Assembly (NCBI GenBank): GCA_964486675.1
Contig: CAZAOD010000001.1
Coordinates: forward strand, 5,683 to 69,682
Length of the DNA: 64,000 nt
Direction: 5' to 3'
Origin: an uncultured Planctomycetales bacterium
Lineage (GTDB): Bacteria > Omnitrophota > Gorgyraeia > Zapsychrales > Aceulaceae
Numbering within the stretch: the stretch's first letter is position 1; each line of letters opens with the position of its first letter. The notes below the pieces were generated by a model, which searched no databases, was not told the DNA's origin, and saw only the letters and a program-made list of their open reading frames with translations. Shown piece after piece: positions 1,953-64,000 of this stretch. The translations under genes and the position numbers were made by a program.

Positions 1953-3864
1953 AGTTTTCGCGGCGATTGTACAGCGTTTGCCGTTAACGGTTGCCTTGTG
2001 GTTGGGGCGCATGATCGGTCTTTTAGGATACCTTTGCGATCATCGTCACCGGTCATTGGCTTATGCCAATCTAAAGATTGCTTTCGCGCGTGAAAAAAAG
2101 ACCAGCGAGATCAAGCGTATTTTACGCAGGACATTTGAGAATTACGGACAGAACTTGATCGAGTTGTTGCGCCTTCCTGTCATTGACCCAAAAACATATA
2201 TCAAGGTCGAGGGCCGAGAGCATGTGGAGAGGGCATTGGCCCAGGGAAAAGGCCTTATCTTTCTGGCTATGCATTTTGGCAGCTGGGAACTGTGCAATTT
2301 TATTCCTCAGCTTTTTCATCATCCCTATAAAGTCCTTGTGAACCCTCAAAAGCGCTATTCTCGCCTTGATGACCTTCTTAATTCTTATCGGCAGAAAGCT
2401 GGTGCTGGCCTTCTCAATCCTGGCGTTAGCACGCGTGCGTTCATTCAGACATTAAAGGATAATGAAATGGTTGGCATGGTCGTTGATCAAGGAGGCAAGA
2501 CGGGGAATCTGGTGAAGTTTTTTGGCCGTGACGCATCTATGTCGACGGGTGCCGTCAGGATGGCGCTTAAGCTGGATGTGGCGGTTTGTTTTTGTGTCTT
2601 GATCCGCGAAAAAGGCTACCATCGTCTTATTATTAAGCCTCAGCTGGCGCTTGCCAAATCTCGGGATTTAGAGGATGGTCTTCAGCAGGGTTTGTCCGGC
2701 ATCGTTCATCTGATGGAAGAGAACATCAAGAAGCATCCCTCGGAGTATATGTGGTTTTACAAGATCTGGAAATACTCAAAAGAGTCTACGATCGTTGTGC
2801 TTAATGATCGTAAGCTTGGTCATTTACATCAATCGTTGGCTGTTGCGGGTCAGATCCAAAGAGCACTGGCTCAGCGAGCGATCCAGTCCCACCTGGAAAT
2901 CATTGATATTGAATTTAAGAGTAAGACGCGTGAAAGAGTTTTTTCTGGGATCAGCTTCGCGAGCCATCGCCGAGTTTCTCAAGGACGTCTTCGCTATCTA
3001 AAATGGTTCTTGCAAAGAAAATCCTTCTTAGAGGTTATGAGCGTTAAGGGAGATTTTGTTATTTCCTGTGGGTCGTCCACGGCAGGCGTGAATTATTTTT
3101 TATCACAAGATTATCGTGCAAAAAGCATTGCTATCCAAAAGCCTGGGATCCTTGATCTTGATCGTTTTGACCTTGTTGTTTTGCCTGAGCACGACCGAAG
3201 TGTTTTTTATGAGCGTCAAAAGAACGTCCTTTACACAAAGGTCGCTCCGAATTTGATCACTCAAGAATATATTCAGTCGCAGGGCGATCAGCTGATGATG
3301 AAATTTCCAGCGTTGCGACATCGCAAAGGCATAAGGGTCGGTGTTCTTTGGGGAGGGGAATCAAAGCACCATGCGATCCCATCACCATTAGCCAGAATGG
3401 TCATGGATCAGCTGAAAGAAGCCGTTGAATCTCTGGATGGTCAGATGTTGCTGACGACATCCCGGCGCACATCGCAAGAAACAGATGATGCGATCCGTGA
3501 GGCGTTGCGCGGATTTGATCGTTGCATCTTTTCTGTTATGCCGAATCACCATAACATCGTTGAGGCCGTAGGTGGGATTTTAGGGTTGTCGGACATCTTA
3601 GTTGTTTCTTCTGATAGCATTTCAATGGTTTCTGAGGCTATCAGTTCCGGGAAGAAAGTCATTGTTTTCAAACCAGAAAAGCGTGTCCTTGGCACATGTA
3701 AGCATGATGTCTTCGTTGAAAAGCTAAGCGTTCAAGGGCATATTCTTGTCTCTGAGGCCAAGGATATCGGGCATTTTCTTTGTCGTGTTGCAAAAGAAGG
3801 TCTTGTGACTAAGCCAGTGGACCAGCAAGAGGACATATTTAAGGTTGCTCAAGAGATCATATGA
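1918..3864 (+). CDS. fusion protein with an N-terminal LpxL/HtrB-family lipid A late acyltransferase and a C-terminal ELM1/DUF1022-like domain
   Basis: The N-terminus (~300 aa) matches the LpxL pattern (LP..LG..LG, HFGSWE, Y/MWFYK end). The C-terminal ~330 aa carry TTSRRT and SISMVSEA motifs that I recall from Mito_fiss_Elm1/DUF1022 proteins. The start is TTG at 1918 and overlaps the lpxK end; an alternative ATG is at 2011. Confidence 0.6.
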   Translation: MNAELILFYCVKVFAAIVQRLPLTVALWLGRMIGLLGYLCDHRHRSLAYANLKIAFAREKKTSEIKRILRRTFENYGQNLIELLRLPVIDPKTYIKVEGREHVERALAQGKGLIFLAMHFGSWELCNFIPQLFHHPYKVLVNPQKRYSRLDDLLNSYRQKAGAGLLNPGVSTRAFIQTLKDNEMVGMVVDQGGKTGNLVKFFGRDASMSTGAVRMALKLDVAVCFCVLIREKGYHRLIIKPQLALAKSRDLEDGLQQGLSGIVHLMEENIKKHPSEYMWFYKIWKYSKESTIVVLNDRKLGHLHQSLAVAGQIQRALAQRAIQSHLEIIDIEFKSKTRERVFSGISFASHRRVSQGRLRYLKWFLQRKSFLEVMSVKGDFVISCGSSTAGVNYFLSQDYRAKSIAIQKPGILDLDRFDLVVLPEHDRSVFYERQKNVLYTKVAPNLITQEYIQSQGDQLMMKFPALRHRKGIRVGVLWGGESKHHAIPSPLARMVMDQLKEAVESLDGQMLLTTSRRTSQETDDAIREALRGFDRCIFSVMPNHHNIVEAVGGILGLSDILVVSSDSISMVSEAISSGKKVIVFKPEKRVLGTCKHDVFVEKLSVQGHILVSEAKDIGHFLCRVAKEGLVTKPVDQQEDIFKVAQEII

Positions 3865-5966
3865 AAATCTTACAGATCCTTCCTGAACTTAATGTGGGCG
3901 GTGTTGAAACAGGCACTATTGACCTTGCGCGCTATTTGACGGAACATGGCCATGAGGCCGTTGTGGTGTCCCATGGCGGAGCCCTTGTTCCAGAGCTAAA
4001 AAGTGCTGGCGCTAAGCATTATACATTGCCAGTCCATCAGAAAAATCTTTTGACCATGTTTTGGTCCATGAAAAGACTTCAGAGGATCATCATCCAAGAA
4101 AAAGTTGATATTGTTCATGCGCGTTCGCGTGTGCCAGCGTGGGTGGCATATTTTGCCTGCCGCAAAACAGGGGTCCCATTCATTACGACATGTCATGGGT
4201 ATTATTCGAAGCATTTTTTTAGTGTTGTGATGGGATGGGCCAAGCTGATCATCGTTCCCAGTCGGGTTATCGGCCATCATATGGTTGAAGATTTTGGTGT
4301 TCCACTTGAAAGTATTCGCTGTATCCCTCGCAGTGTTGATATCCGTAAATTCAACATCCCCAGAGACGAAGATCCAAAACGTCATCCGGTCATCGCGATC
4401 GTTGGCCGTATTACCCCTTTGAAAGGGCACGAATATTTTTTAAGGGCGATGGCTCGCGTTGTTCGTCAGATGCCATACGTAAAAGTTTGGGTTATCGGTG
4501 ATGCTCCCTTGGAAAAAGAGTCTTACAAAGAAGGCTTGTTGAGCTTGACGAAGCAGTTAGGGCTTGTGAACTGTGTTGAATTTTTAGGCAACCGCAAGGA
4601 TATTCCTCAGCTCCTTTCAAGAGTAGATGTTCTTGTTCTGTCGACGGTAACGCAAGAGTCATTTGGCCGTGTCATTCTCGAAGCGCAAGCAGCGGGTGTT
4701 CCTGTTGTCGCTACGCGCGTAGGAGGGGTCGTTGATATCATCGAGGAAGGGGAAACCGGACTTTTGGTAGCCCCTAGACAGCCAGATGAGATGGCTCAGG
4801 CCATTCTTAGGATACTCAATGACACCTCGTTATCAAAAGCGATCGTTGCTAATGCCAAAAAGAAGCTTTTAGAAGAGTACACCTTAGACCACATGGCAAG
4901 TCAAACGCTGGCTGTCTATCAGGAATTATTGCAAACGGTCCATCTTTTAGTGATCAAGTTGAGCGCGATCGGAGACGCGTTACTGATCACACCATCATTG
5001 AAAGCGCTAAGGGAAAAGTTTCCTTTTGCGAGGATCTCTTGTTTGGTGGGACCATCTATCAGGGAGCTCTTGCAAAGGTGCCCTTATGTGGACGAAATCA
5101 TTGTCTATGATCCGAAAGGAAAGCATCGCGGAAAGCTTGGCCTTTGGCGGCTTGGACGCACGCTGCGCAAACATCATTTTGATAAGGTGATCGATCTTCA
5201 GAATAATCGAAAAAGTCACTTGTTAGCATTTTTGAGTTTTTGCCCTGAACGTTATGGCTATAAGAATAAGAAATGGGGATTTTTATTGTCGCGAGGCATT
5301 AAAGATGATCAGGGGATCTTACCGGCTATCCCGCACCAGTTTCGTGTCTTAAAGCAGGTTGGGATCAGCATGGAAGAAGATGTTAAGCTAGAAGTCTGGC
5401 CTTCGCCTCAGGATTACCGCTATGTTCGAGAACTTTTGGAAGGTTATTGGCTTGCAAAAGGGGTAGCGGTCGTTGGTATTAATGTTTCAGCTTCAACCCG
5501 TTGGCCAAGCAAGAATTGGCCAAAAGAGCATATTGCGAAGCTTTGCGATCTCTTGGCGGCGAAAAATATTCGTGTTGTTTTGACTGGGCTAAAAATCGAT
5601 CAACCGGCCGCTCAGGCGATCATAAAGCTTACTAAGGCAAAACCCATTGACCTCACAGGAAAGACAACAGTTCTGCAAATGGCTTCGCTTATTCAGCAAT
5701 GTTCAGCTTTTGTTGTCTCGGATTCCGCGCCTATGCATCTTGCCGCAGCAGTAAGCACGCCGTTTGTTGCCCTTTTCGGTCCGACGGATCCTTTTCGTCA
5801 TTTGCCCCCGGCAAAAAAATATAAGGTCATTGCGTTAAAGCCGCATTGTGCGCCGTGCTATCAGGGGTATTGTCCGATAAAGACACATGCGTGCATGGCC
5901 AACATTTCTCCTCAGGCCGTTTTGCAGGAGATCGAGAGTTTAATCGAGAAAAAGCAGGAAATATGA
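3861..5966 (+). CDS. two-domain glycosyltransferase with an N-terminal GT4 (GT-B, E-x7-E) domain fused to a C-terminal GT9 ADP-heptose:LPS heptosyltransferase domain
   Basis: The N-terminal half has GT4 motifs (ESFGRVILEAQAAGVPVV...GETG). The C-terminal half has the GT9 N-motif LVIKLSAIGDALLITPSL and a C-terminal DSAPMHLAAA..FGPTDP. ATG 3861 overlaps the upstream stop. Confidence 0.75.
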   Translation: MKILQILPELNVGGVETGTIDLARYLTEHGHEAVVVSHGGALVPELKSAGAKHYTLPVHQKNLLTMFWSMKRLQRIIIQEKVDIVHARSRVPAWVAYFACRKTGVPFITTCHGYYSKHFFSVVMGWAKLIIVPSRVIGHHMVEDFGVPLESIRCIPRSVDIRKFNIPRDEDPKRHPVIAIVGRITPLKGHEYFLRAMARVVRQMPYVKVWVIGDAPLEKESYKEGLLSLTKQLGLVNCVEFLGNRKDIPQLLSRVDVLVLSTVTQESFGRVILEAQAAGVPVVATRVGGVVDIIEEGETGLLVAPRQPDEMAQAILRILNDTSLSKAIVANAKKKLLEEYTLDHMASQTLAVYQELLQTVHLLVIKLSAIGDALLITPSLKALREKFPFARISCLVGPSIRELLQRCPYVDEIIVYDPKGKHRGKLGLWRLGRTLRKHHFDKVIDLQNNRKSHLLAFLSFCPERYGYKNKKWGFLLSRGIKDDQGILPAIPHQFRVLKQVGISMEEDVKLEVWPSPQDYRYVRELLEGYWLAKGVAVVGINVSASTRWPSKNWPKEHIAKLCDLLAAKNIRVVLTGLKIDQPAAQAIIKLTKAKPIDLTGKTTVLQMASLIQQCSAFVVSDSAPMHLAAAVSTPFVALFGPTDPFRHLPPAKKYKVIALKPHCAPCYQGYCPIKTHACMANISPQAVLQEIESLIEKKQEI

Positions 5967-8070: not shown

Positions 8071-8998
8071 AAAGATCCTTATTGTAAGCCTTACGAATAT
8101 CGGGGACGTGGTCTTAACGTGTCCGGTGATCGATGCGCTCATCAATCGTTTTCCCTTAGCAGAAATTTCAGTCGTCGTTGGACCAAAAGCCCAGACATTG
8201 TTCGAGCGCAATCCTTATATCAAGAAGGTGCATGTTTTTACAAAGAAGGAGACCTTCGGTGAACTTATTTCTTTCGTTCAGCAGTTGAGACAGCAACGCT
8301 TTGACGCGGTCATTGATCTGCGCAACACAGCGTTAGGGTATTTCTTGGGAGCCCCATTTCATACTTCTGTTTTTGCGTGTATTGATCCTTACCTGCATAA
8401 GCGTGACCAGCATTGGCAGAGGTTGCAAAGTCTTTTTTCTGATGTGGAGCGCACAAAAAAACGTTATGCGATCTTTATTGATGAAACGATAAGAAAGAAG
8501 TCTGAGAATATTTTACGTCAGACCTTGGAGTATGGTAAAGGATATTGCGTGATCGCCGCTGGCTCTGCAGACCGAAAAAAGCGATGGACCGCAGATGGTT
8601 TTGTTTCTGTCTGTCAAGCGTTGGTCCAAACATATCGTATGCCTGTATTCTTTGTTGGAGACATCCTTGATTACGAAGGAGCAGAAAACATTATCAAAAA
8701 GGTCTCACAAGGGGCTGTTAATCTTTGTGGCAAGCTTTCCTTGTTGGAAACAACATGGGTTTTGCGTAATAGCCGTCTTTTGCTTTGTAACGATAGCGCG
8801 GCTATGCATCTTGCCAGCTATTTTGATGTCCCGACTGTCGCTTTGTTCGGGCCCACGGACCCGCGCAAATATGGTCCTTGGGGTGAGCGCAGCTGTTTTG
8901 TCCGAGCAAAGATGATCAATGAAGCTGGCGAAGGTCTTATGACCACTATCGACCCGCAAGAAGTTTTGGATCGCATGAAAGAGCTGATAGTTTTATGA
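8051..8998 (+). CDS. ADP-heptose:LPS heptosyltransferase (GT9), second tandem copy
   Basis: KKILIVSLTNIGDVVLTCPV and DSAAMHLASYFDVPTVALFGPTDP. The start is TTG at 8051, so the exact start is uncertain. Confidence 0.7.
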   Translation: MNKCEIKKILIVSLTNIGDVVLTCPVIDALINRFPLAEISVVVGPKAQTLFERNPYIKKVHVFTKKETFGELISFVQQLRQQRFDAVIDLRNTALGYFLGAPFHTSVFACIDPYLHKRDQHWQRLQSLFSDVERTKKRYAIFIDETIRKKSENILRQTLEYGKGYCVIAAGSADRKKRWTADGFVSVCQALVQTYRMPVFFVGDILDYEGAENIIKKVSQGAVNLCGKLSLLETTWVLRNSRLLLCNDSAAMHLASYFDVPTVALFGPTDPRKYGPWGERSCFVRAKMINEAGEGLMTTIDPQEVLDRMKELIVL

Positions 8999-10083
8999 AA
9001 CAACGATATTTTAAGAATATTCTTGTTGTAAGAACTGACCGGATTGGTGATGTCGTCTTGACAACACCCGTTTTGGAGGCTCTGCGCAAGGCATATCCTT
9101 CGGCCAGGATTTCCATCATGGTGACATCCGCAACCAAGGACGTGGTAGAAGGTAATCCTTTTATCGATGAAGTGATTTCTTATGACAAGAGAGGTAAAGA
9201 CAAGGGATTTCTTGGATTTTGGCGGTTTATTCGTTTTCTAAAGAGCAAAAAATTTGATCTCGCGATCAATTATCACTTGAAGAACAGAACTAATTTTATG
9301 CTGTTCCATGCGGGGATCCCAAACCGGATCGGTTTTGCAAATGACAAGTTCGGTTTTTTGCTGACGGAGAGCTATCCAGATCCTCGAACGGATGGGACTA
9401 AGCATGAAGCGGAATATTGCTTGGACTTGCTGCGAAATATTGGCGTTGATCACCAAGGATTCCAGGTTCATGTTCCGATCCACCGCGCCTCAGAAGTGTG
9501 GGTTGCAAAACTTTTTGCTGAAAATCATATCAATCCTGATGACCGGCTTATCGCGATCCATCCTGGGGCCAGCTGTCTTTCGAAACGTTGGCCTCCGCAG
9601 CGTTTCGCGGAAGTTGCCGATATTCTGGAAAAGGAATATCAGGCAAAGATTATCGTAATAGGCTCTGGCGATAATCAACTTGTCGCTCGGGAGGTTTTGT
9701 TGTCTATGAAGCAATCTGTTGTGGATATGACGGGACGAACGACTATAAGTCATTTGATCAGCCTTTTGAAAAGATGCGCCTTGCTGATCTCGAACGATTC
9801 TGGGCCTGTTCATTTGGCTGTTGGCGTTCAGACACCTGTGGTTTCGATTTTTGGCCGCAATCAAGCAGGCTTATCGGCTACTCGCTGGAAACCCTTAGGC
9901 GAGTTAGACATTGCTTTGCATCATGATATTGGATGCAAGGTTTGTTTAGCCCATAACTGTGATCGCCATTTTCAATGCTTGCGATCGATCACGGTAGACC
10001 ATGTGGTAGAGGCCGCGCGGACGATTTTAAAGAAGAAAATATCGAAAAAAGATGAAAAAGACGATAATATTGTTAACCCCTGA
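8995..10083 (+). CDS. ADP-heptose:LPS heptosyltransferase (GT9), third tandem copy
   Basis: NILVVRTDRIGDVVLTTPVL and DSGPVHLAVGVQTPVVSIFG; ATGA overlap at 8995. Confidence 0.8.
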   Translation: MKQRYFKNILVVRTDRIGDVVLTTPVLEALRKAYPSARISIMVTSATKDVVEGNPFIDEVISYDKRGKDKGFLGFWRFIRFLKSKKFDLAINYHLKNRTNFMLFHAGIPNRIGFANDKFGFLLTESYPDPRTDGTKHEAEYCLDLLRNIGVDHQGFQVHVPIHRASEVWVAKLFAENHINPDDRLIAIHPGASCLSKRWPPQRFAEVADILEKEYQAKIIVIGSGDNQLVAREVLLSMKQSVVDMTGRTTISHLISLLKRCALLISNDSGPVHLAVGVQTPVVSIFGRNQAGLSATRWKPLGELDIALHHDIGCKVCLAHNCDRHFQCLRSITVDHVVEAARTILKKKISKKDEKDDNIVNP

Positions 10084-10099
10084 ACATGCGAGGTAATTC

Positions 10100-10456
10100 A
10101 TGGCAGAGAGATTCGATCAGCGTGAGTTTGTCCGTGTCCCAGATTGTTCCGATGTTGTCTATACGCCTATTTCGTCAGGCAAAAAGACAAAAAGCGAGAT
10201 CAAAGATATCAGCCAGGCAGGGATCTGCTTTATCTCAGAAGAAAAGCTTGAACCCGGAGCCACTATCGATCTGACGCTCACCTTGGAAAAGATCGGATTT
10301 TCTTTTGTCGCGCAGGGGGTCGTGAGATGGGTCAATGAAGTTGTGAAGAATAGGCGCTACGAGGTCGGTATCAAGTTCGTTGATCTTCCCGATCAAGATA
10401 TACGTCGTTTGCTTAATTATATGAATTCCATGAAAAAGTTTGATAGTTATCGGTAA
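10100..10456 (+). CDS. PilZ-domain c-di-GMP-binding protein (stand-alone, 118 aa)
   Basis: An N-terminal R..EFVR (RxxxR-like) and a DISQAGICF (DxSxxG) motif pair, preceded by a GAGGT ribosome-binding site. Confidence 0.65.
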   Translation: MAERFDQREFVRVPDCSDVVYTPISSGKKTKSEIKDISQAGICFISEEKLEPGATIDLTLTLEKIGFSFVAQGVVRWVNEVVKNRRYEVGIKFVDLPDQDIRRLLNYMNSMKKFDSYR

Positions 10457-10603: not shown

Positions 10604-11632
10604 ATGATCAATTTTCCAACACATATCATTTCTCGCTTCCGCGGAAAGAAGATCTTGGTCATCGGTGACATTATTTTGGACCAATATATCCATGGCGCCG
10701 TTGAAAGGATCTCTCCGGAAGCGCCTGTACCTGTTGTGCTGCAGGAGGGAGAGGCGCGCTTTACCCCAGGCGGCGCCGCCAATGTGGCCAACAATTTGAG
10801 CAGTTTAGGCGCGCGTGTTGTTCTCTCTGGTCAAGTAGGAGACGATCTAGAGGCGAGGATCCTGTATCGGGAGTTTAAAAAGCGCTGCGTTGGCACGGCG
10901 GGATTGATCAAAGATCTTAATGGCATGACGTCTTTAAAGACTCGCATCATTGCTCAGCACCAACAGGTGGTCCGTGTTGATCGAGAAAATGGGTCTGGCG
11001 TAAGCCCCGAAGCGAGTCAAAAGATCCTCGCGTTCATTGAGAAGAATTTCCATAAGTTCGACGCGATCATTTTGTCAGATTACGGTAAAGGTGTTATCAC
11101 AAGGGACCTTGTCCGTCGAGTCTGCGCACTAAAGCGCCGGCACCATACGATCGTTACTGTTGATCCTAAGGTGGAGCATTTTAACTACTATCACCAGGCC
11201 ACGTGCATAACGCCAAATCGAAAAGAGACTGAAAACGCGATCCGTAATATTATCATCACGCATGAAAAAGGGCGTCAGCTCAAGATCAGGAACGACAAGC
11301 TAAAGACCATCAAAGATGTTCGTTTGGCTGGACAAGAAATATTGAATTATTTGAATCTGGAATCTTTGCTTGTGACCTTGGGTGAGCAAGGGATGTGTCT
11401 TTTCCAGAAAGGCCAAGAGCCTTTTTTAATAGCCACAAAAGCTAAAGAAGTTTTTGATGTTACAGGCGCAGGGGATACGGTTATTTCTGTTTTTACGTTG
11501 AGCCTAGCAGCGGGGGCTTCTAAGCAGGAGGCCGCGATCCTTGCGAACTATGCCGCAGGCGTTGTTGTCGGGAAAACCGGAGCTGTCGCGGTGACTCCTA
11601 ATGAAATTTTAGCTGCTATGACAGAGAGTTAA
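10604..11632 (+). CDS. hldA: D-glycero-beta-D-manno-heptose-7-phosphate kinase (HldE domain I only; HldA-like monofunctional kinase)
   Basis: ILVIGDIILDQYIHG..ISPEAPVPVV..PGGAANVANN and a C-terminal DVTGAGDT pfkB-family motif. At 342 aa there is no adenylyltransferase domain. Confidence 0.8.
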   Translation: MINFPTHIISRFRGKKILVIGDIILDQYIHGAVERISPEAPVPVVLQEGEARFTPGGAANVANNLSSLGARVVLSGQVGDDLEARILYREFKKRCVGTAGLIKDLNGMTSLKTRIIAQHQQVVRVDRENGSGVSPEASQKILAFIEKNFHKFDAIILSDYGKGVITRDLVRRVCALKRRHHTIVTVDPKVEHFNYYHQATCITPNRKETENAIRNIIITHEKGRQLKIRNDKLKTIKDVRLAGQEILNYLNLESLLVTLGEQGMCLFQKGQEPFLIATKAKEVFDVTGAGDTVISVFTLSLAAGASKQEAAILANYAAGVVVGKTGAVAVTPNEILAAMTES

Positions 11633-60001: not shown

Positions 60002-60034
60002 TGAAACCGCTTTCCCAGACCCATTTTTACCCCC

Positions 60035-60062
60035 TTGTTTTTTATTGATCACGTGCTATATT
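60035..60062 (+). promoter_or_regulatory. promoter TTGTTT-16-TATATT with an extended -10 (TGcTATATT) driving the structured RNA
   Basis: -35 at 60035-60040, TG at 60054-60055, -10 at 60057-60062; predicted transcription start near 60069-60070. Confidence 0.4.
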
Positions 60063-60067
60063 CTCCA

Positions 60068-60262
60068 TTGAGCCGATAAAGGCAAACCCGGGGAAACCCG
60101 GGGGCGCAAAACCACAGACCTAAGTTGTCTGAAGCAGCTTGCGCCCCGCACCCGGAGTGGTGCAGGGGCTACCTCAAGGGCCGGTTGGGCCGCAGTGGAT
60201 GACAAGACGGTGGCTGGGTTGCCGAAGTGGACATACTTTGTCGGCTCTTTCTTTTTTCCTTC
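60068..60262 (+). ncRNA. candidate c-di-GMP-I (GEMM) riboswitch with a terminator-type expression platform
   Basis: The core GGCAAACC-CGGG-GAAA-CCCG-GGGGCGCAAAACC at 60081-60113 closely matches the V. cholerae Vc2 core GGCAAACC-AUUC-GAAA-GAGU-GGGACGCAAAGCC. The next hairpin is CAGAC-CUAAGUU-GUCUG and carries a CCUAAG tetraloop-receptor motif. The 3' junction GGGGCUACC (60165-60173) resembles Vc2 GGGGUUACC. A P1-like pairing forms between 60068-60074 and 60167-60177. GGGUUGCC (60216-60223) can pair with GGCAAACCC (60081-60089) and overlaps the terminator stem. Confidence 0.6.
60221..60257 (+). terminator. intrinsic terminator of the riboswitch expression platform
   Basis: Stem GCCGA (60221-60225) / TCGGC (60241-60245), a 15-nt loop, then the U-tract TCTTTCTTTTTT (60246-60257). 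Confidence 0.5.
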
Positions 60263-60278: not shown

Positions 60279-60306
60279 TTGAAATTTGCAAAAAGTATGC
60301 TATATT
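60279..60306 (+). promoter_or_regulatory. second promoter TTGAAA-16-TATATT with the same extended -10 TGCTATATT (or a duplicated sequence)
   Basis: -35 at 60279-60284 and -10 at 60301-60306; TATGCTATATTTTCC parallels ACGTGCTATATTCTCC at 60051-60066. It lies between the terminator and the large ORF. Confidence 0.4.
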
Positions 60307-60448
60307 TTCCCAAAAGAAACCGCTTTCTTATCCAATCTGTTCTAATTTCCTGCCACGGAAAAAAGGTTTAAGGCTTGCTTTTTTAGCCTTTGAGTACGTA
60401 TGTTGATCAATTTTGATTCTAACAAGTTGTCAAAAAAGGAGAAGTTTC

Positions 60449-63400
60449 ATGACCGCCTGCGGTAACAAAGCCCAAAGAAAATTCATTTCAAAGATCATTT
60501 CTGTCTTTATCGCCTTTAGTTTTCTTTTCACCTCTGTTATTCCAAGCTATGCCCAGAGTCTCTCTGGGCCTGCGGTCATTCCATCGGGGCTAATCACGCC
60601 CACGGCAGCCTTTATGCCTGTTATGTTGCGCGCTATTGAGATCGACCCTGTTAATCCTTTGCATTTTGGCTTTATCGTGGATAACGGTGACACTGGTCTA
60701 GAAGGTGAGGCCTTGACCGCGGAAGCCAAGAATCTCATTCGCTACTTTTTAGCCTCCTTGACAACCCCTGAAAAAGAAATGTGGGTTAACCTTTCGCCGT
60801 ATGAAAAAGACCGCATCATTCCTGATAGCTTCGGCCAGACCCAGATGGGCCGAGACCTTTTAGCCCAAGACTACATGTTGAAACAATTGACAGCTTCCTT
60901 GATATATCCGGAAGATGAACTTGGCAAGAAGTTTTGGGACAAGATTTACAAGACTGCTTATGAGAAGTATGGCACCACCGAGATGCCCATGGATACATTC
61001 AACAAGATCTGGATCTTGCCTAAGAAGGCCACCGTTTATGAAAACAATAACCGAGTTTTTGTTGTTGATAGTGAGCTCGCCGTTATGATGGAGGAGGATG
61101 TTCTGGCACTGCAGAAAAGTAGAGAGGAGAAAGTAGAGAGTAGAGAGATTGGAAAAGATGCGGGTGGCTTGAGCCAGAGCTCTCAGCCGCGCGCAGCGGC
61201 AGGGGTTCCCCGCGGGGGGATGGGTGCCGCGAGCACGGATGAGATGGCGAAAGACAGGACCCGCACCTTGACATCCCAGATCGTGCGCGAGATCGTATTG
61301 CCTGAGATCGAAAAAGAGGTCAATTTTGGCAAGAATTTTGCTGCCCTTCGCCAGGTTTACAGTGCGATGATCCTGGCAGCGTGGTACAAGAACAATTTGA
61401 GGGAAAGCTTGCTTGGAAAAGTCTATATGGATCAAAATAAGATCAAGGGGATCGATCTTGTTGATAAAACTGAGAAGCAGAGGATCTATGATGAATACGT
61501 TAATGCCTTTAAAAAAGGTATTTATGACTTTATTAAGGTTGAGCACGACCAATACACGGGAAAAAATATTCCGCGTAAGTATTTTTCAGGCGGTTTCACG
61601 CCTACTACTTCTGATGGGATCCCTTTAGGCGAGGCGTTGGAAGAGGTCACTCCATCCGCAGATAAATTGCAAGCAAAGGGAAGTGCAACGAGATTTGACG
61701 CGAATCTAAGGGAAAGTAAGGACGGAAAGGGTTCCCCCGGCTCTGCGATCATTTCAAGGATATCGTCTTTAGAGCCGGCATCTGTTCTTTTGCGAGAGAT
61801 CGCGTCTAAGTTCGAGCTGGCTGGAAAAATGCTTTTAAGCTTTAATATTCTTACAGAGGAAGGATATTCTTACGGATTTTCTTTAAGCGATCCCCAGGCT
61901 TCAGGTCGCCTAAGCGTTGTTTTGCCAAAAGCTAAGAAGGTTACGATGTTCTTTAAAGATAGGACCTCTTTAGCCTTTGCCAAAGATGCAGCAAATAGCC
62001 GATGGAAGATAACACAGTTTTACGGTCAAGGATTTAATTTCAAGGACGAAGGAGCAAAATGGAGTGAGCTCGGTGGCTCTGTCAATATCCCTAAGTTTCA
62101 CGCTATTGTGGATCAAAGAGATATGACAACAGGGATCATCGCGGAAAATATGGCTTTAGGGTTGGTCAGTGACGACATCAAGCAGGTCGAGTGGTATAGG
62201 CCCAGCAGTAAAAACCTCATGGCTGAAAAACTTGCTTCTGTGCCGCAAGATGTCAGAGAACCTTTGACGGTAAAGATGTTTATTCGTGACGGCTATGTTG
62301 TTCTTCATCGAGCCAAAAAGGCAAATTTTTGGGAGTTTGTATCGCAGGGGATGCCACTGGCAGAAGATAAAGAAGAAGCCGTGTCTTCCAGCATTCGTAT
62401 TATTTCAAAGGAGGAGATCGATCCGTTCGTTCAAAAGTTAGGCATGGACAAGCCGGGTAGCACTTTTAACCGAGATTATTTTGCAAGTCTTATTGCTCAA
62501 TATAATCAGCAAATGGTCGATAAGCAAAAAGGAATTGTTAACGATCTGGTTATTGGCAAGAATTTCTTTCCAAATTCTATGATCTCAGCGTCAAAAATGA
62601 AAGAGATCATGAACGCGACGGATTTCGCGACAGAGATCTTGTCGCAGGAGGAAAAGTATCTTGAGGCTGCCAAGAATGTTGATCATCGCATTGATTTTAT
62701 GAACGGCGGAGCAGGGACTTCTGTGGGGGGAGTTGGGGCGAAGTCCATGGCCTTGACCTTTGTTGAAGATCTACAAGGATTTGATAAAGGCGGAAATCCT
62801 AAGATCTTTAAAAATGTGGAATTTAGCATTCTCGATGTAAAGTATGTCCACAACATCATTGCCGCCCAAAAAGGTCGCGTTGCGCGCGCCAGTATTCGTG
62901 AGCTTGTAAGCAAAGATACCGTTGGCCCTATCTCAGAGTTTCGCAATAATCATATTTGCCTTCTTGATAAGATCGATGATCGCATCCCAGAAAGTAAAAA
63001 GCGCACGTACGCTGAATATATTAAAGGAATGCAGGGGATTAACTTAGACGAAGACATGATCGTGCAGGCAATCCAACCCGTTGTTGATGTGGCAACAGGA
63101 GAGCTAACAGATCGAAAAACATCTCCAGGCGGTCATGGTGTTTTTGGGCGAATGTCTTTTGAAGAAATCCTTAATGATGTTCTGCCTGAAGATAAGGTAG
63201 TGATCCGCGATATTACTAATGGGGATGGTCCGAACAATCAAATTCCGTCCGTTGTTTTAGGCTGGATGGCGGCCAACAAGGTCCCCATGGTACTTTTGTC
63301 ATCGACAACCATGGAATTGGATAAAAAAGGTGGCAAGGTGGGTGCCCAGCCTGTCGAGGACGGCCTTTTGCTGCAGGATCTTACCGCTGACAACACGCGC

Positions 63401-64000
63401 ATTAACATGATGGAAACTGTTCAAGCGGGCAAGGTTGGGCAGGGTGAGCTTTTTCAGAAGATCGGTTTGACTACAGGTCCTGTTGAAGATGTTGGGCAGG
63501 AGGGGGAGCAGTTCTTTAATACAAACATTATGGGTATCAACGAGACTGTGCTTCAGCCATTCTTGCGCGAGCTGGAACAGATCATCGGACACGAACAATA
63601 TGTGCAGTGGACATCGCCAACTTTTATCGATAACCCAAAAGAAAACGGCACGATCTATCAGATCGAGGGCGCCTTGGGCCATGTGCTTCAGAATCTTGAT
63701 TACCACGTGCGCTACACCGATAACCAGAAAGTAAAAGACTTGATGAAAAAGTACGGTTGGACGAGGCTTTTGCATATCGTGAATTTTACACCTGAATACC
63801 GAGAACTATGCTTTACGCCGGTTAAATTTGCCTTGGATTGGAATTATTATTTATCTGAGCATTTTACGATGGACACAAAAGAATGGTCCATGAGAAACAA
63901 CAAGCCAGGACATTTGGCACGGTTTGAATTTTCTAAGTCCTACGAGGATTATTATCAGAAAAACAAGATCAACGCGCATAAAATTCTTCCATTGGGTTCT
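60449..64000 (+). CDS. very large protein (>1184 aa, 3' end beyond window) with an N-terminal signal peptide/anchor, a ~600-aa uncharacterised region and a C-terminal UDPGP-family (UTP-sugar-1-phosphate uridylyltransferase-like) domain
   Basis: The frame is open from ATG 60449 (AAGGAG ribosome-binding site 8 nt upstream) to the window end. The N-terminus is MTACGNKAQRKFISKIISVFIAFSFLFTSVIPSYAQS. UDPGP motifs are FMNGGAGTSVGG..KS (eukaryotic LNGGLGTSMG..KS), SPGGHG (PPGHGD), KKGGKVG (KGGTL) and FNTNIMGIN (FNTNNLW). Minus-strand ORFs here are antisense artefacts. Confidence 0.7.
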   Translation, partial: MTACGNKAQRKFISKIISVFIAFSFLFTSVIPSYAQSLSGPAVIPSGLITPTAAFMPVMLRAIEIDPVNPLHFGFIVDNGDTGLEGEALTAEAKNLIRYFLASLTTPEKEMWVNLSPYEKDRIIPDSFGQTQMGRDLLAQDYMLKQLTASLIYPEDELGKKFWDKIYKTAYEKYGTTEMPMDTFNKIWILPKKATVYENNNRVFVVDSELAVMMEEDVLALQKSREEKVESREIGKDAGGLSQSSQPRAAAGVPRGGMGAASTDEMAKDRTRTLTSQIVREIVLPEIEKEVNFGKNFAALRQVYSAMILAAWYKNNLRESLLGKVYMDQNKIKGIDLVDKTEKQRIYDEYVNAFKKGIYDFIKVEHDQYTGKNIPRKYFSGGFTPTTSDGIPLGEALEEVTPSADKLQAKGSATRFDANLRESKDGKGSPGSAIISRISSLEPASVLLREIASKFELAGKMLLSFNILTEEGYSYGFSLSDPQASGRLSVVLPKAKKVTMFFKDRTSLAFAKDAANSRWKITQFYGQGFNFKDEGAKWSELGGSVNIPKFHAIVDQRDMTTGIIAENMALGLVSDDIKQVEWYRPSSKNLMAEKLASVPQDVREPLTVKMFIRDGYVVLHRAKKANFWEFVSQGMPLAEDKEEAVSSSIRIISKEEIDPFVQKLGMDKPGSTFNRDYFASLIAQYNQQMVDKQKGIVNDLVIGKNFFPNSMISASKMKEIMNATDFATEILSQEEKYLEAAKNVDHRIDFMNGGAGTSVGGVGAKSMALTFVEDLQGFDKGGNPKIFKNVEFSILDVKYVHNIIAAQKGRVARASIRELVSKDTVGPISEFRNNHICLLDKIDDRIPESKKRTYAEYIKGMQGINLDEDMIVQAIQPVVDVATGELTDRKTSPGGHGVFGRMSFEEILNDVLPEDKVVIRDITNGDGPNNQIPSVVLGWMAANKVPMVLLSSTTMELDKKGGKVGAQPVEDGLLLQDLTADNTRINMMETVQAGKVGQGELFQKIGLTTGPVEDVGQEGEQFFNTNIMGINETVLQPFLRELEQIIGHEQYVQWTSPTFIDNPKENGTIYQIEGALGHVLQNLDYHVRYTDNQKVKDLMKKYGWTRLLHIVNFTPEYRELCFTPVKFALDWNYYLSEHFTMDTKEWSMRNNKPGHLARFEFSKSYEDYYQKNKINAHKILPLGS

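What the first reader, a model, noticed from the sequence alone, without database searches (positions are those of the whole stretch)
60449..64000. Giant signal-anchored protein with an unknown ~600-aa N-region fused to a eukaryotic-type UDP-sugar pyrophosphorylase domain, apparently riboswitch-controlled
UDPGP-family enzymes are normally ~470-aa cytosolic proteins. Here the domain is found from roughly residue 700 of a protein of at least 1184 aa. Its N-terminus looks like a cleavable signal peptide or type II anchor, and the first 600 residues match nothing I recognise; they are partly low-complexity and Gln/Ser/Ala-rich. The gene is the only one in the window placed behind a riboswitch-like leader. 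A c-di-GMP-gated, membrane-anchored nucleotide-sugar-activating enzyme could feed an exopolysaccharide or glycan-modification route.
Basis: partly seen in the sequence, partly recalled or inferred. Interest (0 to 1): 0.75.

Follow-up and report, generated by a model that had tools for sequence, protein, structure and literature searches.

The report
Riboswitch-led exported giant protein, swappable enzymes
The window ends with the first third of a ~3,200-residue, apparently exported Omnitrophota protein that sits behind a c-di-GMP riboswitch; it belongs to a very large, apparently undescribed family in which a fixed head and tail frame interchangeable, normally cytosolic enzymes, and its UDP-sugar pyrophosphorylase-like domain is just one such cargo.

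Summary
The ORF 60449-64000 is open, real (dN/dS 0.05-0.11 against an 88%-identical orthologue) and runs off the window; the orthologue is 3,239 aa. It starts with a cleavable-type Sec signal peptide and has no other hydrophobic segment. Residues ~691-1184 are a divergent UDPGP-fold nucleotidyltransferase with all catalytic motifs kept, shown by profile and fold searches but not by Pfam directly. A c-di-GMP-I-class aptamer (60072-60227) with a terminator-type platform lies upstream and recurs at syntenic loci.

Residues 1-385 are a conserved N-module found in at least 8,354 protein clusters, essentially all Omnitrophota, nearly always paired with a ~60-aa C-terminal tag. Between them sit very diverse enzymes. 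At the same syntenic, riboswitch-led locus, other lineages carry GAPDH plus acyl-CoA dehydrogenase, NDK plus guanylate kinase, or nothing recognisable. So c-di-GMP control belongs to the locus and frame, not to UDP-sugar synthesis.

No glycosyltransferase or export genes follow the gene in the orthologue. A conserved second promoter lies between aptamer and gene, so riboswitch control may be partial. Rfam's 'GGC variant' label is marginal; the aptamer has the canonical A at the diagnostic position. How the family works is unknown.

The parts
60035..60062 (+). Promoter-like element P1 (TTGTTT, 16-nt spacer, TGcTATATT) immediately upstream of the aptamer
   Evidence: Read from the sequence. The -35 (CTTGTT) and the extended -10 (TGCTATATT) recur at the same place in L001, L002 and L003; L024 has TGCTATTCT there instead. 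It falls below the scan tool's -35 threshold in the window. Function is inferred.
60072..60227 (+). c-di-GMP-I-class riboswitch aptamer with an ~80-nt structured insertion in P1b
   Evidence: Rfam RF03167, 61.5 bits against gathering 59, full model 1-80. Homologous aptamers lie upstream of syntenic genes in L001 (61.7 bits), L002 and L003 (RF01051, 62-68 bits against 35). 10 pairs show compensatory changes, mostly in the insertion. A, not G, sits at the column where the GGC model has G.
60216..60257 (+). Expression platform: a 13-bp hairpin (60216-60247) whose 5' half is the aptamer's 3' side, ending in the conserved element CTTTGTCGGCTC (60236-60247), followed by the T-run TTTCTTTTTT (60248-60257)
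   Evidence: Fold -13 kcal/mol, z = -2.1. CTTTGTCGGCTC is also perfectly complementary to the aptamer 5' strand GAGCCGATAAAG (60070-60081). That helix keeps 12 of 12 pairs in 5 loci with one compensatory change; the local hairpin keeps 86%. The element is identical in L001, L002 and L003.
60279..60306 (+). Second promoter-like element P2 (TTGAAA, 16-nt spacer, TGcTATATT) between the terminator and the gene
   Evidence: Best promoter match in the region, 10 of 12 with an extended -10. The hexamers and spacing are invariant in window, L001, L002 and L003 while surrounding sequence diverges. Similar boxes occur in L062 and L125.
60347..60363 (+). Conserved leader box TTCCTGCCACGGAAAAA of unknown role, in the 5' UTR downstream of P2
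   Evidence: Invariant in the 4-locus alignment. GCCACGGAAAAA matches 3 of 32 genome loci, L001, L002 and L003. Related GCCACGG boxes occur in L062 and L125.
60436..60451 (+). Ribosome-binding site AAGGAG (60436-60441) and ATG start codon (60449-60451)
   Evidence: Read from the sequence. The start is conserved with L001.
60449..60553 (+). Sec-type signal peptide, residues 1-35, with predicted cleavage at SYA|QS
   Evidence: Feature statistics across 112 family members. It is the only hydrophobic segment in the protein. Cleavage and export are inferred, not shown.
60554..61603 (+). Conserved Omnitrophota N-module, residues ~36-385 (motifs WVNLSPYE, MGRDLLAQDY, RKYFSGG), with a variable low-complexity linker at residues ~225-275
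61604..62518 (+). Middle region, residues ~386-690, of unknown small domains separated by Ser-rich linkers
   Evidence: Shared only with P0001 (59% identity) and the L001 orthologue. No Pfam hit. dN/dS is 0.11.
62519..64000 (+). UDPGP-fold nucleotidyltransferase domain, residues ~691-1184, truncated by the window end. Catalytic motifs: GGAGT (754-758), K765, GHG (895-897, H896), NGD (924-926), FNTN (1023-1026), FTPVK (1122-1126)
   Evidence: Profile against PDB UGPases, E=1.9e-11. 9 of 12 relatives hit PF01704. AF2 pLDDT 83. Foldseek top 50 are all UGPase/UAP. Invariant columns mapped to window coordinates. H896, N924 and D926 align with H191, N219 and D221 of L. major UGP (alignment). dN/dS is 0.048.

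Best explanation
The last 3.5 kb of the window are the 5' third of a ~9.7-kb gene from an Omnitrophota bacterium, a diderm with LPS genes and a PilZ protein in the same window. The gene encodes a ~3,240-aa modular protein with four kinds of part.

(a) A cleavable Sec signal peptide.
(b) A ~350-aa conserved N-module of unknown fold.
(c) A long variable 'cargo' stretch of small unknown domains plus one divergent but catalytically intact UDPGP-fold NTP:sugar-1-phosphate nucleotidyltransferase.
(d) In the orthologue, a conserved ~60-aa C-terminal tag.

N-module and C-tag form a fixed frame used by thousands of Omnitrophota proteins. The enzymes between them (sugar-phosphate, nucleotide and central-carbon enzymes) are exchanged like cassettes, even at this one syntenic locus.

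Inferred: the frame directs export across the inner membrane (signal peptide) and some further targeting or assembly step (N-module and C-tag). The enzyme cargo would then act outside the cytoplasm, in the periplasm, at the cell surface or at a host or prey interface.

Expression: a promoter drives a c-di-GMP-I-class aptamer whose 5' and 3' strands can each be captured by a conserved downstream element abutting a U-run. Without ligand this forms a terminator. With c-di-GMP bound the aptamer holds those strands and transcription reads on, giving an ON switch (inferred, about 60% likely). A second conserved promoter after the terminator probably gives c-di-GMP-independent basal expression.
For: Gene reality and length.

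Omnitrophota origin: source names of the homologues and loci. Diderm and c-di-GMP machinery: lipid A acyltransferase, GT9 heptosyltransferases and PilZ (55.7 bits).

Signal peptide.

N-module family: all 120 top hits share it; 8,354 clusters match.

C-tag: found in 101 of 120 hits, almost always within about 50 residues of the C-terminus; present in the L001, L002 and L003 proteins at 61-66% identity while the cargo does not align.

Cargo diversity: precomputed Pfam for the hits includes PGM, UDPGP, NDK, PEPCK, enolase, PGK, PGI, hexokinase, HMGL and GGDEF. UDPGP-like plus phosphohexomutase occurs in P0002, and UDPGP-like plus NDK in P0004.

Cassette exchange at a syntenic locus: PolB-exo-like gene, aptamer, framed gene, M20 peptidase in window, L001, L002 and L003, and partly in L125 and L150, each with different cargo.

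UDPGP fold and motifs.

Aptamer and platform. G20, A47 and C92 are the ligand contacts per PMC11218506.

Second promoter.
Against: Export is inferred from sequence features only; no SignalP run or experiment was available. The cargo enzymes need NTPs, sugar phosphates, NAD or FAD, which are not expected outside the cytoplasm, so an extracytoplasmic catalytic role is hard to rationalise.

The window copy of the UDPGP domain fails Pfam on its own.

The N-module model is of only moderate confidence (pLDDT 64) and no function can be read from it.

The riboswitch direction rests on two alternative pairings, with only five sequences and a single compensatory change (121 of 500 shuffles do as well).

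P2 could make the riboswitch irrelevant to the gene. In L002, L003, L024 and L062 a second clean terminator follows the first. In the studied Bc1 riboswitch such a second terminator stays folded with ligand and the gene does not respond (PMC11218506).

The aptamer is found at only 4 of 32 N-module loci from genomes.
Confidence: 0.68

Rival explanations
1. One reading: a membrane-anchored, c-di-GMP-gated UDP-sugar pyrophosphorylase that makes activated sugars for an exopolysaccharide or glycan-modification pathway.
For: The UDPGP fold has intact catalytic motifs. A c-di-GMP aptamer lies upstream, and c-di-GMP classically up-regulates exopolysaccharide production (general knowledge). Relatives fuse the domain to a phosphohexomutase or NDK, which are consecutive steps of nucleotide-sugar synthesis.
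Against: The same aptamer, N-module and synteny hold unrelated cargo in L002, L003 and L125. No glycosyltransferase or export genes lie downstream in the orthologue. The hydrophobic segment looks cleaved, and by the positive-inside rule the enzyme would sit outside the cytoplasm, away from UTP. The enzyme domain is a small part of a 3,239-aa protein.
Confidence: 0.08
2. The family is not exported. The N-terminal hydrophobic helix is an uncleaved tether and the proteins are membrane-associated cytoplasmic multi-enzyme assemblies (metabolons). The UDPGP-like domain would then do ordinary nucleotide-sugar metabolism.
For: The cargo is overwhelmingly cytosolic-type enzymes that need NTP, NAD or FAD. 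Consecutive pathway steps are fused. Strong purifying selection acts on the catalytic domain (dN/dS 0.048). The 2026 preprint considers a cytoplasmic-face reading for TM-only long proteins.
Against: The n-region is strongly positive (3.65 K/R against 0.27 D/E), which predicts N-in and C-out. At the predicted cleavage site -1 is Ala, with small residues at -3 (88 of 104) and Gln at +1 (97 of 104), which is the signature of signal peptidase I cleavage and not of an anchor. Stand-alone coaE and glgA-type genes exist in this window, while other family members carry CoaE and starch-synthase domains, so the framed copies need not be the housekeeping ones.
Confidence: 0.15
3. The aptamer unit is a self-contained, terminated small RNA or an insulated leader that does not control the giant gene. 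The gene would be transcribed from P2, and the co-location would be inherited synteny.
For: P2 and its leader are conserved. The closing element abuts a U-run whichever partner it pairs with. A second strong terminator follows in L002, L003, L024 and L062. In L024 two other genes separate the aptamer from the N-module gene. The Bc1 precedent shows no in vivo response. The same aptamer subtype precedes unrelated genes (GH1 beta-glucosidases, an SDR) elsewhere.
Against: The arrangement aptamer then framed gene is kept across lineages whose N-modules are only 56-63% identical and whose cargo has been replaced. The window and L001 have no second terminator, and in the window only ~20 nt separate the T-run from P2. 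Both alternative pairings overlap ligand-pocket or P1 nucleotides, as expected of a functional switch.
Confidence: 0.25
4. The UDPGP-like domain is a catalytically dead binding module, for example a nucleotide-sugar or glycan-binding domain in an adhesin-like surface protein.
For: The extracytoplasmic location lacks substrates. The window copy is the most divergent member and has no direct Pfam hit. Long Omnitrophota proteins have been proposed to act as adhesins (PMC10066038).
Against: Every motif that contacts nucleotide, phosphate or metal in UGPases is invariant across 12 members at 26-43% identity. dN/dS is 0.048.
Confidence: 0.07

Closest known systems
Eukaryote-type UDP-sugar pyrophosphorylases (Pfam PF01704: UGPase, UAP/AGX, USP; e.g. 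Leishmania major UGP, PDB 2oef, and yeast Ugp1p, 2i5k)
   Same: Same fold over ~430-480 residues (Foldseek E 5e-16, TM 0.5-0.57). Same motif set: G-rich NB loop plus Lys, GHG His (H191 of the L. major enzyme), NGD, FNTN and F.PVK Lys.
   Different: Only 16-18% identity, and below Pfam detection for this copy. It is embedded at residues ~700-1260 of a 3,239-aa protein that carries a signal peptide, instead of being a ~470-500-aa cytosolic enzyme. Substrate is unknown.
c-di-GMP-I (GEMM-I) riboswitches in front of large secreted or surface proteins, e.g. Bc2 with the collagen-adhesion protein Cap in B. thuringiensis (PMC4933901) and Vc1 with gbpA in V. cholerae (PMC4744006); also Bc1 with its dual-terminator platform (PMC11218506)
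   Same: Same aptamer class, with a GAAA tetraloop on the first hairpin and G/A/C at the three ligand-contact positions. A terminator-type platform overlaps the aptamer. The regulated product is a large exported protein. Tandem terminators in relatives resemble Bc1.
   Different: An ~80-nt structured, covarying insertion in P1b. A conserved long-range helix between the aptamer 5' strand and the platform. A second conserved promoter between switch and gene. The host phylum is Omnitrophota, for which I found no riboswitch report.
Omnitrophota long or giant 'multi-enzyme metabolic' proteins and Archaeovorins (bioRxiv 10.1101/2023.11.21.568195; bioRxiv 10.64898/2026.06.07.730766)
   Same: Same phylum. 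A signal peptide plus tiling of normally cytosolic sugar and nucleotide enzymes along one polypeptide. Same unresolved puzzle of where such enzymes act. A link to c-di-GMP: those papers note PilZ genes next to giant genes and GGDEF domains within them.
   Different: Those catalogues cover proteins of 10,000 aa or more (30,000 or more in one), mostly with many TM helices. This protein is 3.2 kaa with a signal peptide only. The shared N-module and C-tag frame, the cargo exchange at a syntenic locus and the riboswitch are not mentioned in the text I could search.
Secretion cargo with conserved trafficking ends and variable payload (type IX secretion substrates with a C-terminal domain; polymorphic toxins). 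An analogy from general knowledge, not tested.
   Same: The logic: signal peptide, interchangeable functional domains, and a short conserved C-terminal element present in hundreds to thousands of paralogues.
   Different: No sequence or profile similarity to any curated sorting signal or C-terminal domain. There is an additional conserved 350-aa N-module. The payloads are metabolic enzymes, not hydrolases, adhesins or toxins. No secretion machinery has been linked to it.

Membership tests
UDPGP family (Pfam PF01704) | Match to the family HMM above the curated threshold | tested here: not met
   No PF01704 hit for the window protein at E<=1, whole protein or C-region alone. 9 of its 12 closest family members do hit at E<=0.01 (best E 6.6e-16), and several homologues carry precomputed PF01704.
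UDPGP family (Pfam PF01704) | Significant profile-level homology to experimentally solved UGPases | tested here: met
   A profile of 12 sequences hits 3gue, 2oef, 4m2b, 8c0b, 2i5k and 1z90 at E 1.9e-11 to 1.8e-4.
UDPGP family (Pfam PF01704) | UGPase/UAP three-dimensional fold | tested here: met
   AF2 model pLDDT 83, pTM 0.87. The Foldseek PDB top 50 are all UGPase/UAP, probability 1.00. The C-terminal beta-helix part lies beyond the window end.
UDPGP family (Pfam PF01704) | Catalytic and nucleotide-binding residues: G-rich loop plus Lys, GHG His, NGD Asn/Asp, C-terminal F.PVK Lys | tested here: met
   G754, G756, K765, H896, N924, D926 and K1126 are all in invariant columns. H896, N924 and D926 align to H191, N219 and D221 of L. 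major UGP.
UDPGP family (Pfam PF01704) | NTP:sugar-1-phosphate nucleotidyltransferase activity | not testable with these tools
   Needs an enzyme assay.
c-di-GMP-I riboswitch (Rfam RF01051, clan CL00126) | Covariance-model score above gathering for a model of the clan | tested here: met
   RF03167, 61.5 bits against 59, for the window. A lower-scoring overlapping match to another family of the same clan was left out of the table, so its identity and score are not visible. Syntenic aptamers in L002 and L003 score 62-68 bits on RF01051 against 35.
c-di-GMP-I riboswitch (Rfam RF01051, clan CL00126) | Ligand-contact nucleotides equivalent to Vc2 G20, A47 and C92, and a GAAA tetraloop on the first hairpin | tested here: met
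   AAAG-G (G20 equivalent), CGC-A-AAA (A47 equivalent) and UUG-C-CG (C92 equivalent) are read from the model alignment. The GAAA loop is at CCCGGGGAAACCCGGG. The identities of the contact positions come from PMC11218506. Mapping them onto the window is my own alignment. The tetraloop receptor was not checked.
c-di-GMP-I riboswitch (Rfam RF01051, clan CL00126) | Expression platform that competes with the aptamer | tested here: met
   The 13-bp hairpin plus U-run overlaps the aptamer's 3' side. An alternative 12-bp helix with the aptamer's 5' strand is conserved in 5 loci.
c-di-GMP-I riboswitch (Rfam RF01051, clan CL00126) | Binds c-di-GMP and changes gene expression | not testable with these tools
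   Needs in-line probing or ITC, and transcription or reporter assays.
c-di-GMP-I-GGC variant (Rfam RF03167) | G instead of A at the intercalating position (A47 equivalent). My recollection is that the variant is named after the three pocket nucleotides; I could not retrieve the defining paper. | tested here: not met
   The model consensus has G in 'CGC-G-AA'. The window, L001, L002, L003 and L024 all have A. The window exceeds the gathering score by only 2.5 bits, and L002 scores 54.2, below it.
Omnitrophota N-module / C-tag framed proteins (unnamed; defined here) | N-terminal signal peptide plus the ~350-aa N-module | tested here: met
Omnitrophota N-module / C-tag framed proteins (unnamed; defined here) | ~60-aa C-terminal tag (GGI..LDLQI.RD..G..L..Q..E..NI.GF) | tested here: inconclusive
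   The window ends before the C-terminus. The 88%-identical orthologue has the tag at residues ~3144-3207 of 3,239, as do 101 of 120 family members.
Omnitrophota giant proteins (Archaeovorin or multi-enzyme class of the 2023 and 2026 preprints) | Length of at least 10,000 aa (2026 catalogue) or 30,000 aa (2023), with many TM helices | tested here: not met
   The orthologue is 3,239 aa with a single N-terminal hydrophobic segment. It resembles the class in content but not in scale.

The most novel reading that the evidence does not exclude
Omnitrophota possess a dedicated, phylum-wide delivery frame (Sec signal, N-module and C-terminal tag) that exports thousands of different, catalytically intact 'cytosolic' enzymes, including nucleotide-sugar, nucleotide-kinase, glycolytic and acyl-CoA enzymes. 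This would amount to an extracytoplasmic or host/prey-directed metabolic effector system with cassette-like payload exchange. At one syntenic locus its expression is switched by c-di-GMP through a riboswitch, linking the attach-or-not second messenger to deployment of metabolic effectors by these ultra-small, probably host-dependent bacteria.
Probability: 0.3. Interest if true: 0.85.

Novelty: new variant of a known kind. Interest (0 to 1): 0.66.

Why it matters
Omnitrophota are widespread, uncultivated, ultra-small bacteria suspected of being predators or parasites. Their long proteins full of housekeeping-type enzymes are an acknowledged puzzle. This locus gives that puzzle three handles.

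1. A sharply defined, very large family of at least 8,354 clusters, with a fixed head and tail that can be searched, counted and modelled.
2. Direct evidence that the enzyme payload is exchanged between lineages at one conserved locus. This argues that the frame, not the enzyme, is the unit of function.
3. A predicted small-molecule switch (c-di-GMP) in front of it, which is testable in vitro without cultivating the organism.

If the frame really exports active metabolic enzymes, that would be an unusual way for a bacterium to act on its surroundings or on a host. If the proteins are cytoplasmic after all, the signal-peptide-like N-terminus of thousands of proteins needs a new explanation.

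For annotation: the UDPGP domain here should not be read as evidence of an exopolysaccharide pathway, and Rfam's 'GGC variant' call should not be read as evidence of an altered ligand.

Tried and rejected
(1) Recovering the source contig through the neighbour gene: no record for the exact PolB-exo-like protein. The genome scan gave an orthologue instead.

(2) Direct Pfam and NCBIfam on the window protein and on the 3,239-aa orthologue: nothing significant. Only profile and fold methods showed UDPGP.

(3) Internal repeats in the orthologue by self-BLAST: none.

(5) C-tag: no Pfam or NCBIfam hit and no credible PDB relative (best E=0.061, rejected as noise). The word-indexed search with the tag profile returned only 60-109-aa fragments, many on very short contigs, and says nothing about distribution.

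(6) Riboswitch as a general feature of the family: rejected, only 4 of 32 genome loci.

(7) The leader motifs (GCCACGGAAAAA, CTTTGTCGGCTC) as family-wide signals: rejected, only in the closest relatives.

(8) Another family member in the window: none.

(9) Retrieving the paper that defines the GGC variant: not held. The definition rests on my recollection plus the model consensus.

(10) Deciding between the two platform pairings by covariation: too little variation.

(11) The SNORD60 hit at 60370-60458 (21 bits against 42): rejected as chance.

(12) The eS25 ribosomal-protein hit of the C-region in PDB (E=0.012): rejected as a compositional match.

Full report

The + strand from 60449 to the window end is a single open frame of 1184 codons. 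It begins with a good ribosome-binding site (AAGGAG, 7 nt before the ATG). A genome-collection scan found an orthologue in an independent Omnitrophota MAG (L001, JAKQPK010000050). It is 88% identical over residues 414-1184 and 73.5% over residues 1-434. There the frame continues to 3,239 aa.

Codon-level comparison gives dN/dS of 0.08 (N-module, residues 1-225), 0.11 (middle region) and 0.048 (C-region). For residues 276-400 synonymous sites were saturated and no ratio could be computed. The ORF is therefore a real, strongly constrained gene and not a frameshift or assembly artefact. The window holds only its first 37%.

**2. The organism and the neighbourhood**

Essentially all named homologues and related loci are from Candidatus Omnitrophota/Omnitrophica MAGs; some are deposited as 'uncultured Planctomycetales'. 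Apart from ORFs that overlap them on the opposite strand, all ORFs of at least 150 aa in the window are on the + strand.

Upstream of the finding lie a starch-synthase-type (glgA-like) gene, coaE, rho, prfA, prmC, aroA, trpD, trpC, trpF and a 222-aa PolB-exonuclease-like gene. Elsewhere in the window there is an LPS-core cluster (lipid A acyltransferase, GT9 heptosyltransferases, a pfkB-family carbohydrate kinase). Within it sits a 118-aa PilZ protein at 10100-10456, scoring 55.7 bits against a cutoff of 22.5. The organism is thus a diderm and has c-di-GMP effector machinery.

**3. Anatomy of the protein**

*(a) Signal peptide, residues 1-35.* The n-region has four K/R and no D/E. An uninterrupted hydrophobic stretch follows, then SYA|QS. 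Of 112 family N-termini, 104 have an A[QNR] site after the h-region, defined with Ala at -1. Among those 104, S/A/G/V is at -3 in 88 and Gln at +1 in 97, with a median cleavage position of 36. This is the pattern of a signal peptidase I substrate and not of a type II anchor. It is the only TM-like segment in the orthologue's 3,239 residues. Export is inferred from these features and has not been shown.

*(b) N-module, residues ~36-385.* This region is not 'nothing'. All 120 listed homologues share it at 47-73% identity. In 19 diverse members, 66 columns are invariant, including WVNLSPYE, G.D.L..DY.LKQ and RKYFSGG.

An exhaustive HMM search of 1.84 billion cluster representatives finds 8,354 proteins at E<=1e-3 and 6,697 at E<=1e-30. 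In the top 150 the module begins within about 65 residues of the N-terminus, in proteins of 420 to 5,312 aa.

*(c) Middle region, residues ~386-690.* It is shared only with the orthologue and one other protein, P0001, and has no family match.

*(d) C-region, residues ~691-1184.* Pfam does not hit it, and single-sequence search of PDB gives only E of about 0.5 to UGPases. Four lines of evidence nevertheless show UDPGP:

- Sixteen of the top 120 homologues share this region at 24-41% identity (BLASTP), and most of them carry a precomputed PF01704 hit.
- A 12-sequence alignment (A2) used as a profile hits solved UGPases of Trypanosoma, Leishmania, Aspergillus, yeast, human and plants at E 1.9e-11 to 1.8e-4.
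- Nine of the 12 members hit PF01704 individually.
- The AlphaFold model is confident (pLDDT 83, pTM 0.87), and its 50 best Foldseek matches in PDB are all UGPase or UDP-GlcNAc pyrophosphorylase structures (E to 5e-16, 430-480 aligned columns, 16-18% identity for the UGPase hits).

The invariant columns are the catalytic set: GG.GT (754-758) with K765, GHG with H896, NGD with N924 and D926, FNTN (1023-1026) and F.PVK with K1126. In the alignment, H896, N924 and D926 fall on H191, N219 and D221 of the L. major enzyme. PDB entry 4j18 is the H191L mutant of that enzyme.

The domain continues beyond the window, to about residue 1259 of the orthologue plus a beta-helix.

*(e) Beyond the window (from L001).* About 1,900 more residues follow with no recognisable family. 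The protein ends in a ~60-aa conserved tag, NLGGISMDSKTLDLQIKRDGNGIPLPISQQPPELMNIQGF….

**4. The frame and its cargo**

The C-terminal tag is found in 101 of the 120 N-module proteins, almost always within about 50 residues of the C-terminus. I did not check whether the 19 without it are truncated at contig ends. The tag has no match in Pfam or NCBIfam and no credible PDB relative, and it is not hydrophobic enough to be a membrane anchor.

Between head and tail the family carries a wide range of enzymes. The list includes phosphohexomutase, UDPGP, NDK, PEPCK, enolase, PGK, PGI, hexokinase, ROK and PfkB kinases, HMG-CoA-lyase-like, isocitrate lyase/malate synthase, LpxC, CoaE, NUDIX, methyltransferases and GGDEF, plus HEAT, ankyrin and WD40 repeats. 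The UDPGP-like domain occurs next to a phosphohexomutase in P0002 and next to an NDK in P0004. These enzymes supply its two substrates.

**5. The key comparative result**

The locus is syntenic across lineages: trp genes, PolB-exo-like gene, c-di-GMP aptamer, framed gene, M20 peptidase. This holds in the window (upstream part), L001, L002 and L003. It holds partly in the metagenome contigs L125 and L150.

The encoded proteins align only in the N-module (60-63% identity) and the C-tag (61-66%). The cargo is unrelated:

- Window and L001: UDPGP-like domain.
- L002 (2,769 aa): GAPDH plus acyl-CoA dehydrogenase.
- L003 (2,397 aa): nothing recognisable.
- L125: NDK plus guanylate kinase plus ankyrin repeats.

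What is conserved at this locus is the riboswitch and the frame. The enzyme content has been replaced repeatedly.

In addition, no glycosyltransferase or export genes follow the gene, and the enzyme is predicted to lie outside the cytoplasm.

**6. The riboswitch**

The only Rfam gathering-level hit in the 64 kb is at 60072-60227 (+): RF03167 'c-di-GMP-I-GGC', 61.5 bits against a cutoff of 59, covering the full model with an 81-nt insertion in the second hairpin. Homologous aptamers precede the syntenic genes in L001 (GGC model, 61.7 bits) and in L002 and L003 (canonical RF01051, 62-68 bits against 35). The insertion is structured, and 10 pairs show compensatory changes across four sequences.

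The 'GGC' label is marginal. L002 scores 54.2 on that model, below its cutoff. At the column where the GGC consensus has G (CGC-G-AA), all five aptamers have A. The ligand contacts of the reference aptamer Vc2 are G20, A47 and C92 (PMC11218506). By my alignment the window has G, A and C at those positions. I therefore read it as a canonical c-di-GMP aptamer. That the variant's name refers to A47G is my recollection; I could not retrieve the defining paper.

*Platform.* Directly after the aptamer, 60216-60247 folds into a 13-bp hairpin (-13 kcal/mol, z = -2.1), followed by TTTCTTTTTT. Its 5' half is the aptamer's own 3' side (GGGUUGCCGAAG). Its 3' half, CUUUGUCGGCUC, is also perfectly complementary to the aptamer's 5' strand GAGCCGAUAAAG, which includes the G20 equivalent.

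That long-range helix keeps 12 of 12 pairs in five loci, with one compensatory G-C to A-U change in L024. The local hairpin keeps 86% of cells paired, with no compensatory change. With five sequences neither test is significant. Both pairings are incompatible with the ligand-bound aptamer and both end at the U-run. The simplest reading is termination without ligand and read-through with c-di-GMP, an ON switch. This is inferred.

*Caveats.*

- A promoter-like element is the best in the region: TTGAAA, 16 nt, TGcTATATT at 60279-60306. It lies between the terminator and the gene and is invariant in four loci while flanking sequence diverges. The same is true of a downstream box, TTCCYGCCACGGAAAAA.
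- L002, L003, L024 and L062 have a second clean terminator after the first. In the studied Bc1 riboswitch, such a second terminator stays folded with ligand and the gene does not respond in vivo (PMC11218506). The window and L001 lack this second terminator.
- Only 4 of 32 N-module loci from genomes have an aptamer.
- In L024 a small Cys-rich ORF and a DAHP synthase gene lie between the aptamer and the N-module gene.
- A metagenome scan with the aptamer's 5' core found about 22-30 further aptamers. Two (L062, L125) directly precede N-module genes. Others precede GH1 beta-glucosidases (L040 confirmed by Pfam; L059, L110 and L138 similar in sequence) or an SDR.

'Riboswitch-controlled' is therefore plausible for this locus but may mean partial control, on top of a constitutive promoter.

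**7. How it most likely works**

*Shown:* the gene; the family; the frame; cargo exchange; the UDPGP fold with intact motifs; the aptamer class; and a competing hairpin plus U-run.

*Inferred:*

- Sec export and signal-peptide cleavage.
- A targeting or assembly role for the N-module and C-tag.
- Catalytic competence of the UDPGP-like domain, in either direction. Outside the cell, pyrophosphorolysis or scavenging of nucleotide sugars is as conceivable as synthesis.
- An ON response to c-di-GMP.

*Not known:* where the protein ends up, what the frame binds, and why enzymes that need NTP, NAD or FAD would be exported. The cytoplasmic-tether rival removes that paradox, but it conflicts with the positive-inside rule and with the conserved cleavage motif.

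**8. Comparison with what is known, and novelty**

- The enzyme domain is a remote member of the PF01704 superfamily by fold and motifs, but it fails the family HMM.
- The RNA is a c-di-GMP-I-class aptamer with an unusual structured insertion and a long-range closing helix.
- The protein resembles in content the 'multi-enzyme metabolic' long proteins of Omnitrophota described in two preprints, which also report signal peptides, nearby PilZ genes and the same localisation puzzle. It is far smaller and has a signal peptide only.
- I found no description of the N-module and C-tag frame, of cargo exchange at a syntenic locus, or of riboswitches in this phylum. The library is incomplete and holds few subscription-journal papers, so absence is not proof.

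I rate it a new variant of a known kind.

Noticed in passing
window 10100-10456 (+): A 118-aa stand-alone PilZ-domain protein (Pfam 55.7 bits against 22.5) sits inside an LPS-core gene cluster: lipid A acyltransferase/ELM1-like at 1918-3864, a GT4+GT9 fusion at 3861-5966, GT9 at 8995-10083 and a pfkB-family kinase at 10604-11632. It shows that the organism uses c-di-GMP and is a diderm.
   Followed up: partly
window 1-64000: Apart from ORFs that overlap them on the opposite strand, every ORF of at least 150 aa is on the + strand, and GC skew is positive throughout. This is extreme co-orientation of genes over 64 kb.
   Followed up: no
window 60347-60363; L001 9904-9915; L002 6743-6754; L003 9893-9904: An invariant box, TTCCYGCCACGGAAAAA, lies in the 5' leader downstream of the second promoter. 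It could form a 4-bp hairpin (UUCC/GGAA) or be a protein-binding site. Related GCCACGG boxes occur in L062 and L125.
   Followed up: partly
window 60003-60014 and 60316-60327: The 12-mer GAAACCGCTTTC occurs twice, once ~20 nt upstream of the P1 -35 and once just downstream of P2. The same pair is present in L001, and a one-mismatch copy follows P2 in L002. It may be a regulator site.
   Followed up: no
L001 10001-19720 (orthologue) and P0001: The Ser-rich motif SS[ASG][ILVA] recurs in L001 and P0001, apparently between domains: 6 observed against 1.3 +/- 1.2 expected in the orthologue, 7 against 0.46 +/- 0.68 in P0001, and 0 in P0002. It could mark linkers, glycosylation sites or processing sites.
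   Followed up: partly
L001 residues 413-487 relative to window residue ~414-434: The orthologue carries an extra ~75-aa segment that the window protein lacks, and the two differ in the N-module's variable linker. Domain gain or loss therefore occurs even between proteins that are 88% identical elsewhere.
   Followed up: no
L040, L059, L110, L138 (metagenome loci): The same aptamer subtype (5' core AGCCGATAAAGGYAAAC) precedes ~410-aa glycoside hydrolase family 1 enzymes. L040 is confirmed by Pfam (279.6 bits); the other three are similar in sequence. Another copy precedes a short-chain dehydrogenase in L045.
   Followed up: partly
L024 8121-8264 and 8393-9790: Here the aptamer directly follows trpF and precedes a 100-aa Cys-rich ORF with no Pfam hit and a DAHP synthase. 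The N-module gene starts ~1.7 kb further on.
   Followed up: partly
L005, L006, L007, L026, L028; also L010, L012, L017, L025, L029 (one MAG): Five loci hold two N-module genes within ~10 kb, and five of the 32 loci come from a single 'Candidatus Zapsychrus exili' MAG. Each genome therefore carries many paralogues, some of them clustered.
   Followed up: no
L125 (syntenic framed gene, partial): Its cargo is NDK plus guanylate kinase, which together convert GMP to GTP, the precursor of c-di-GMP. It sits behind a c-di-GMP aptamer and is followed by ankyrin repeats. This may be coincidence.
   Followed up: no
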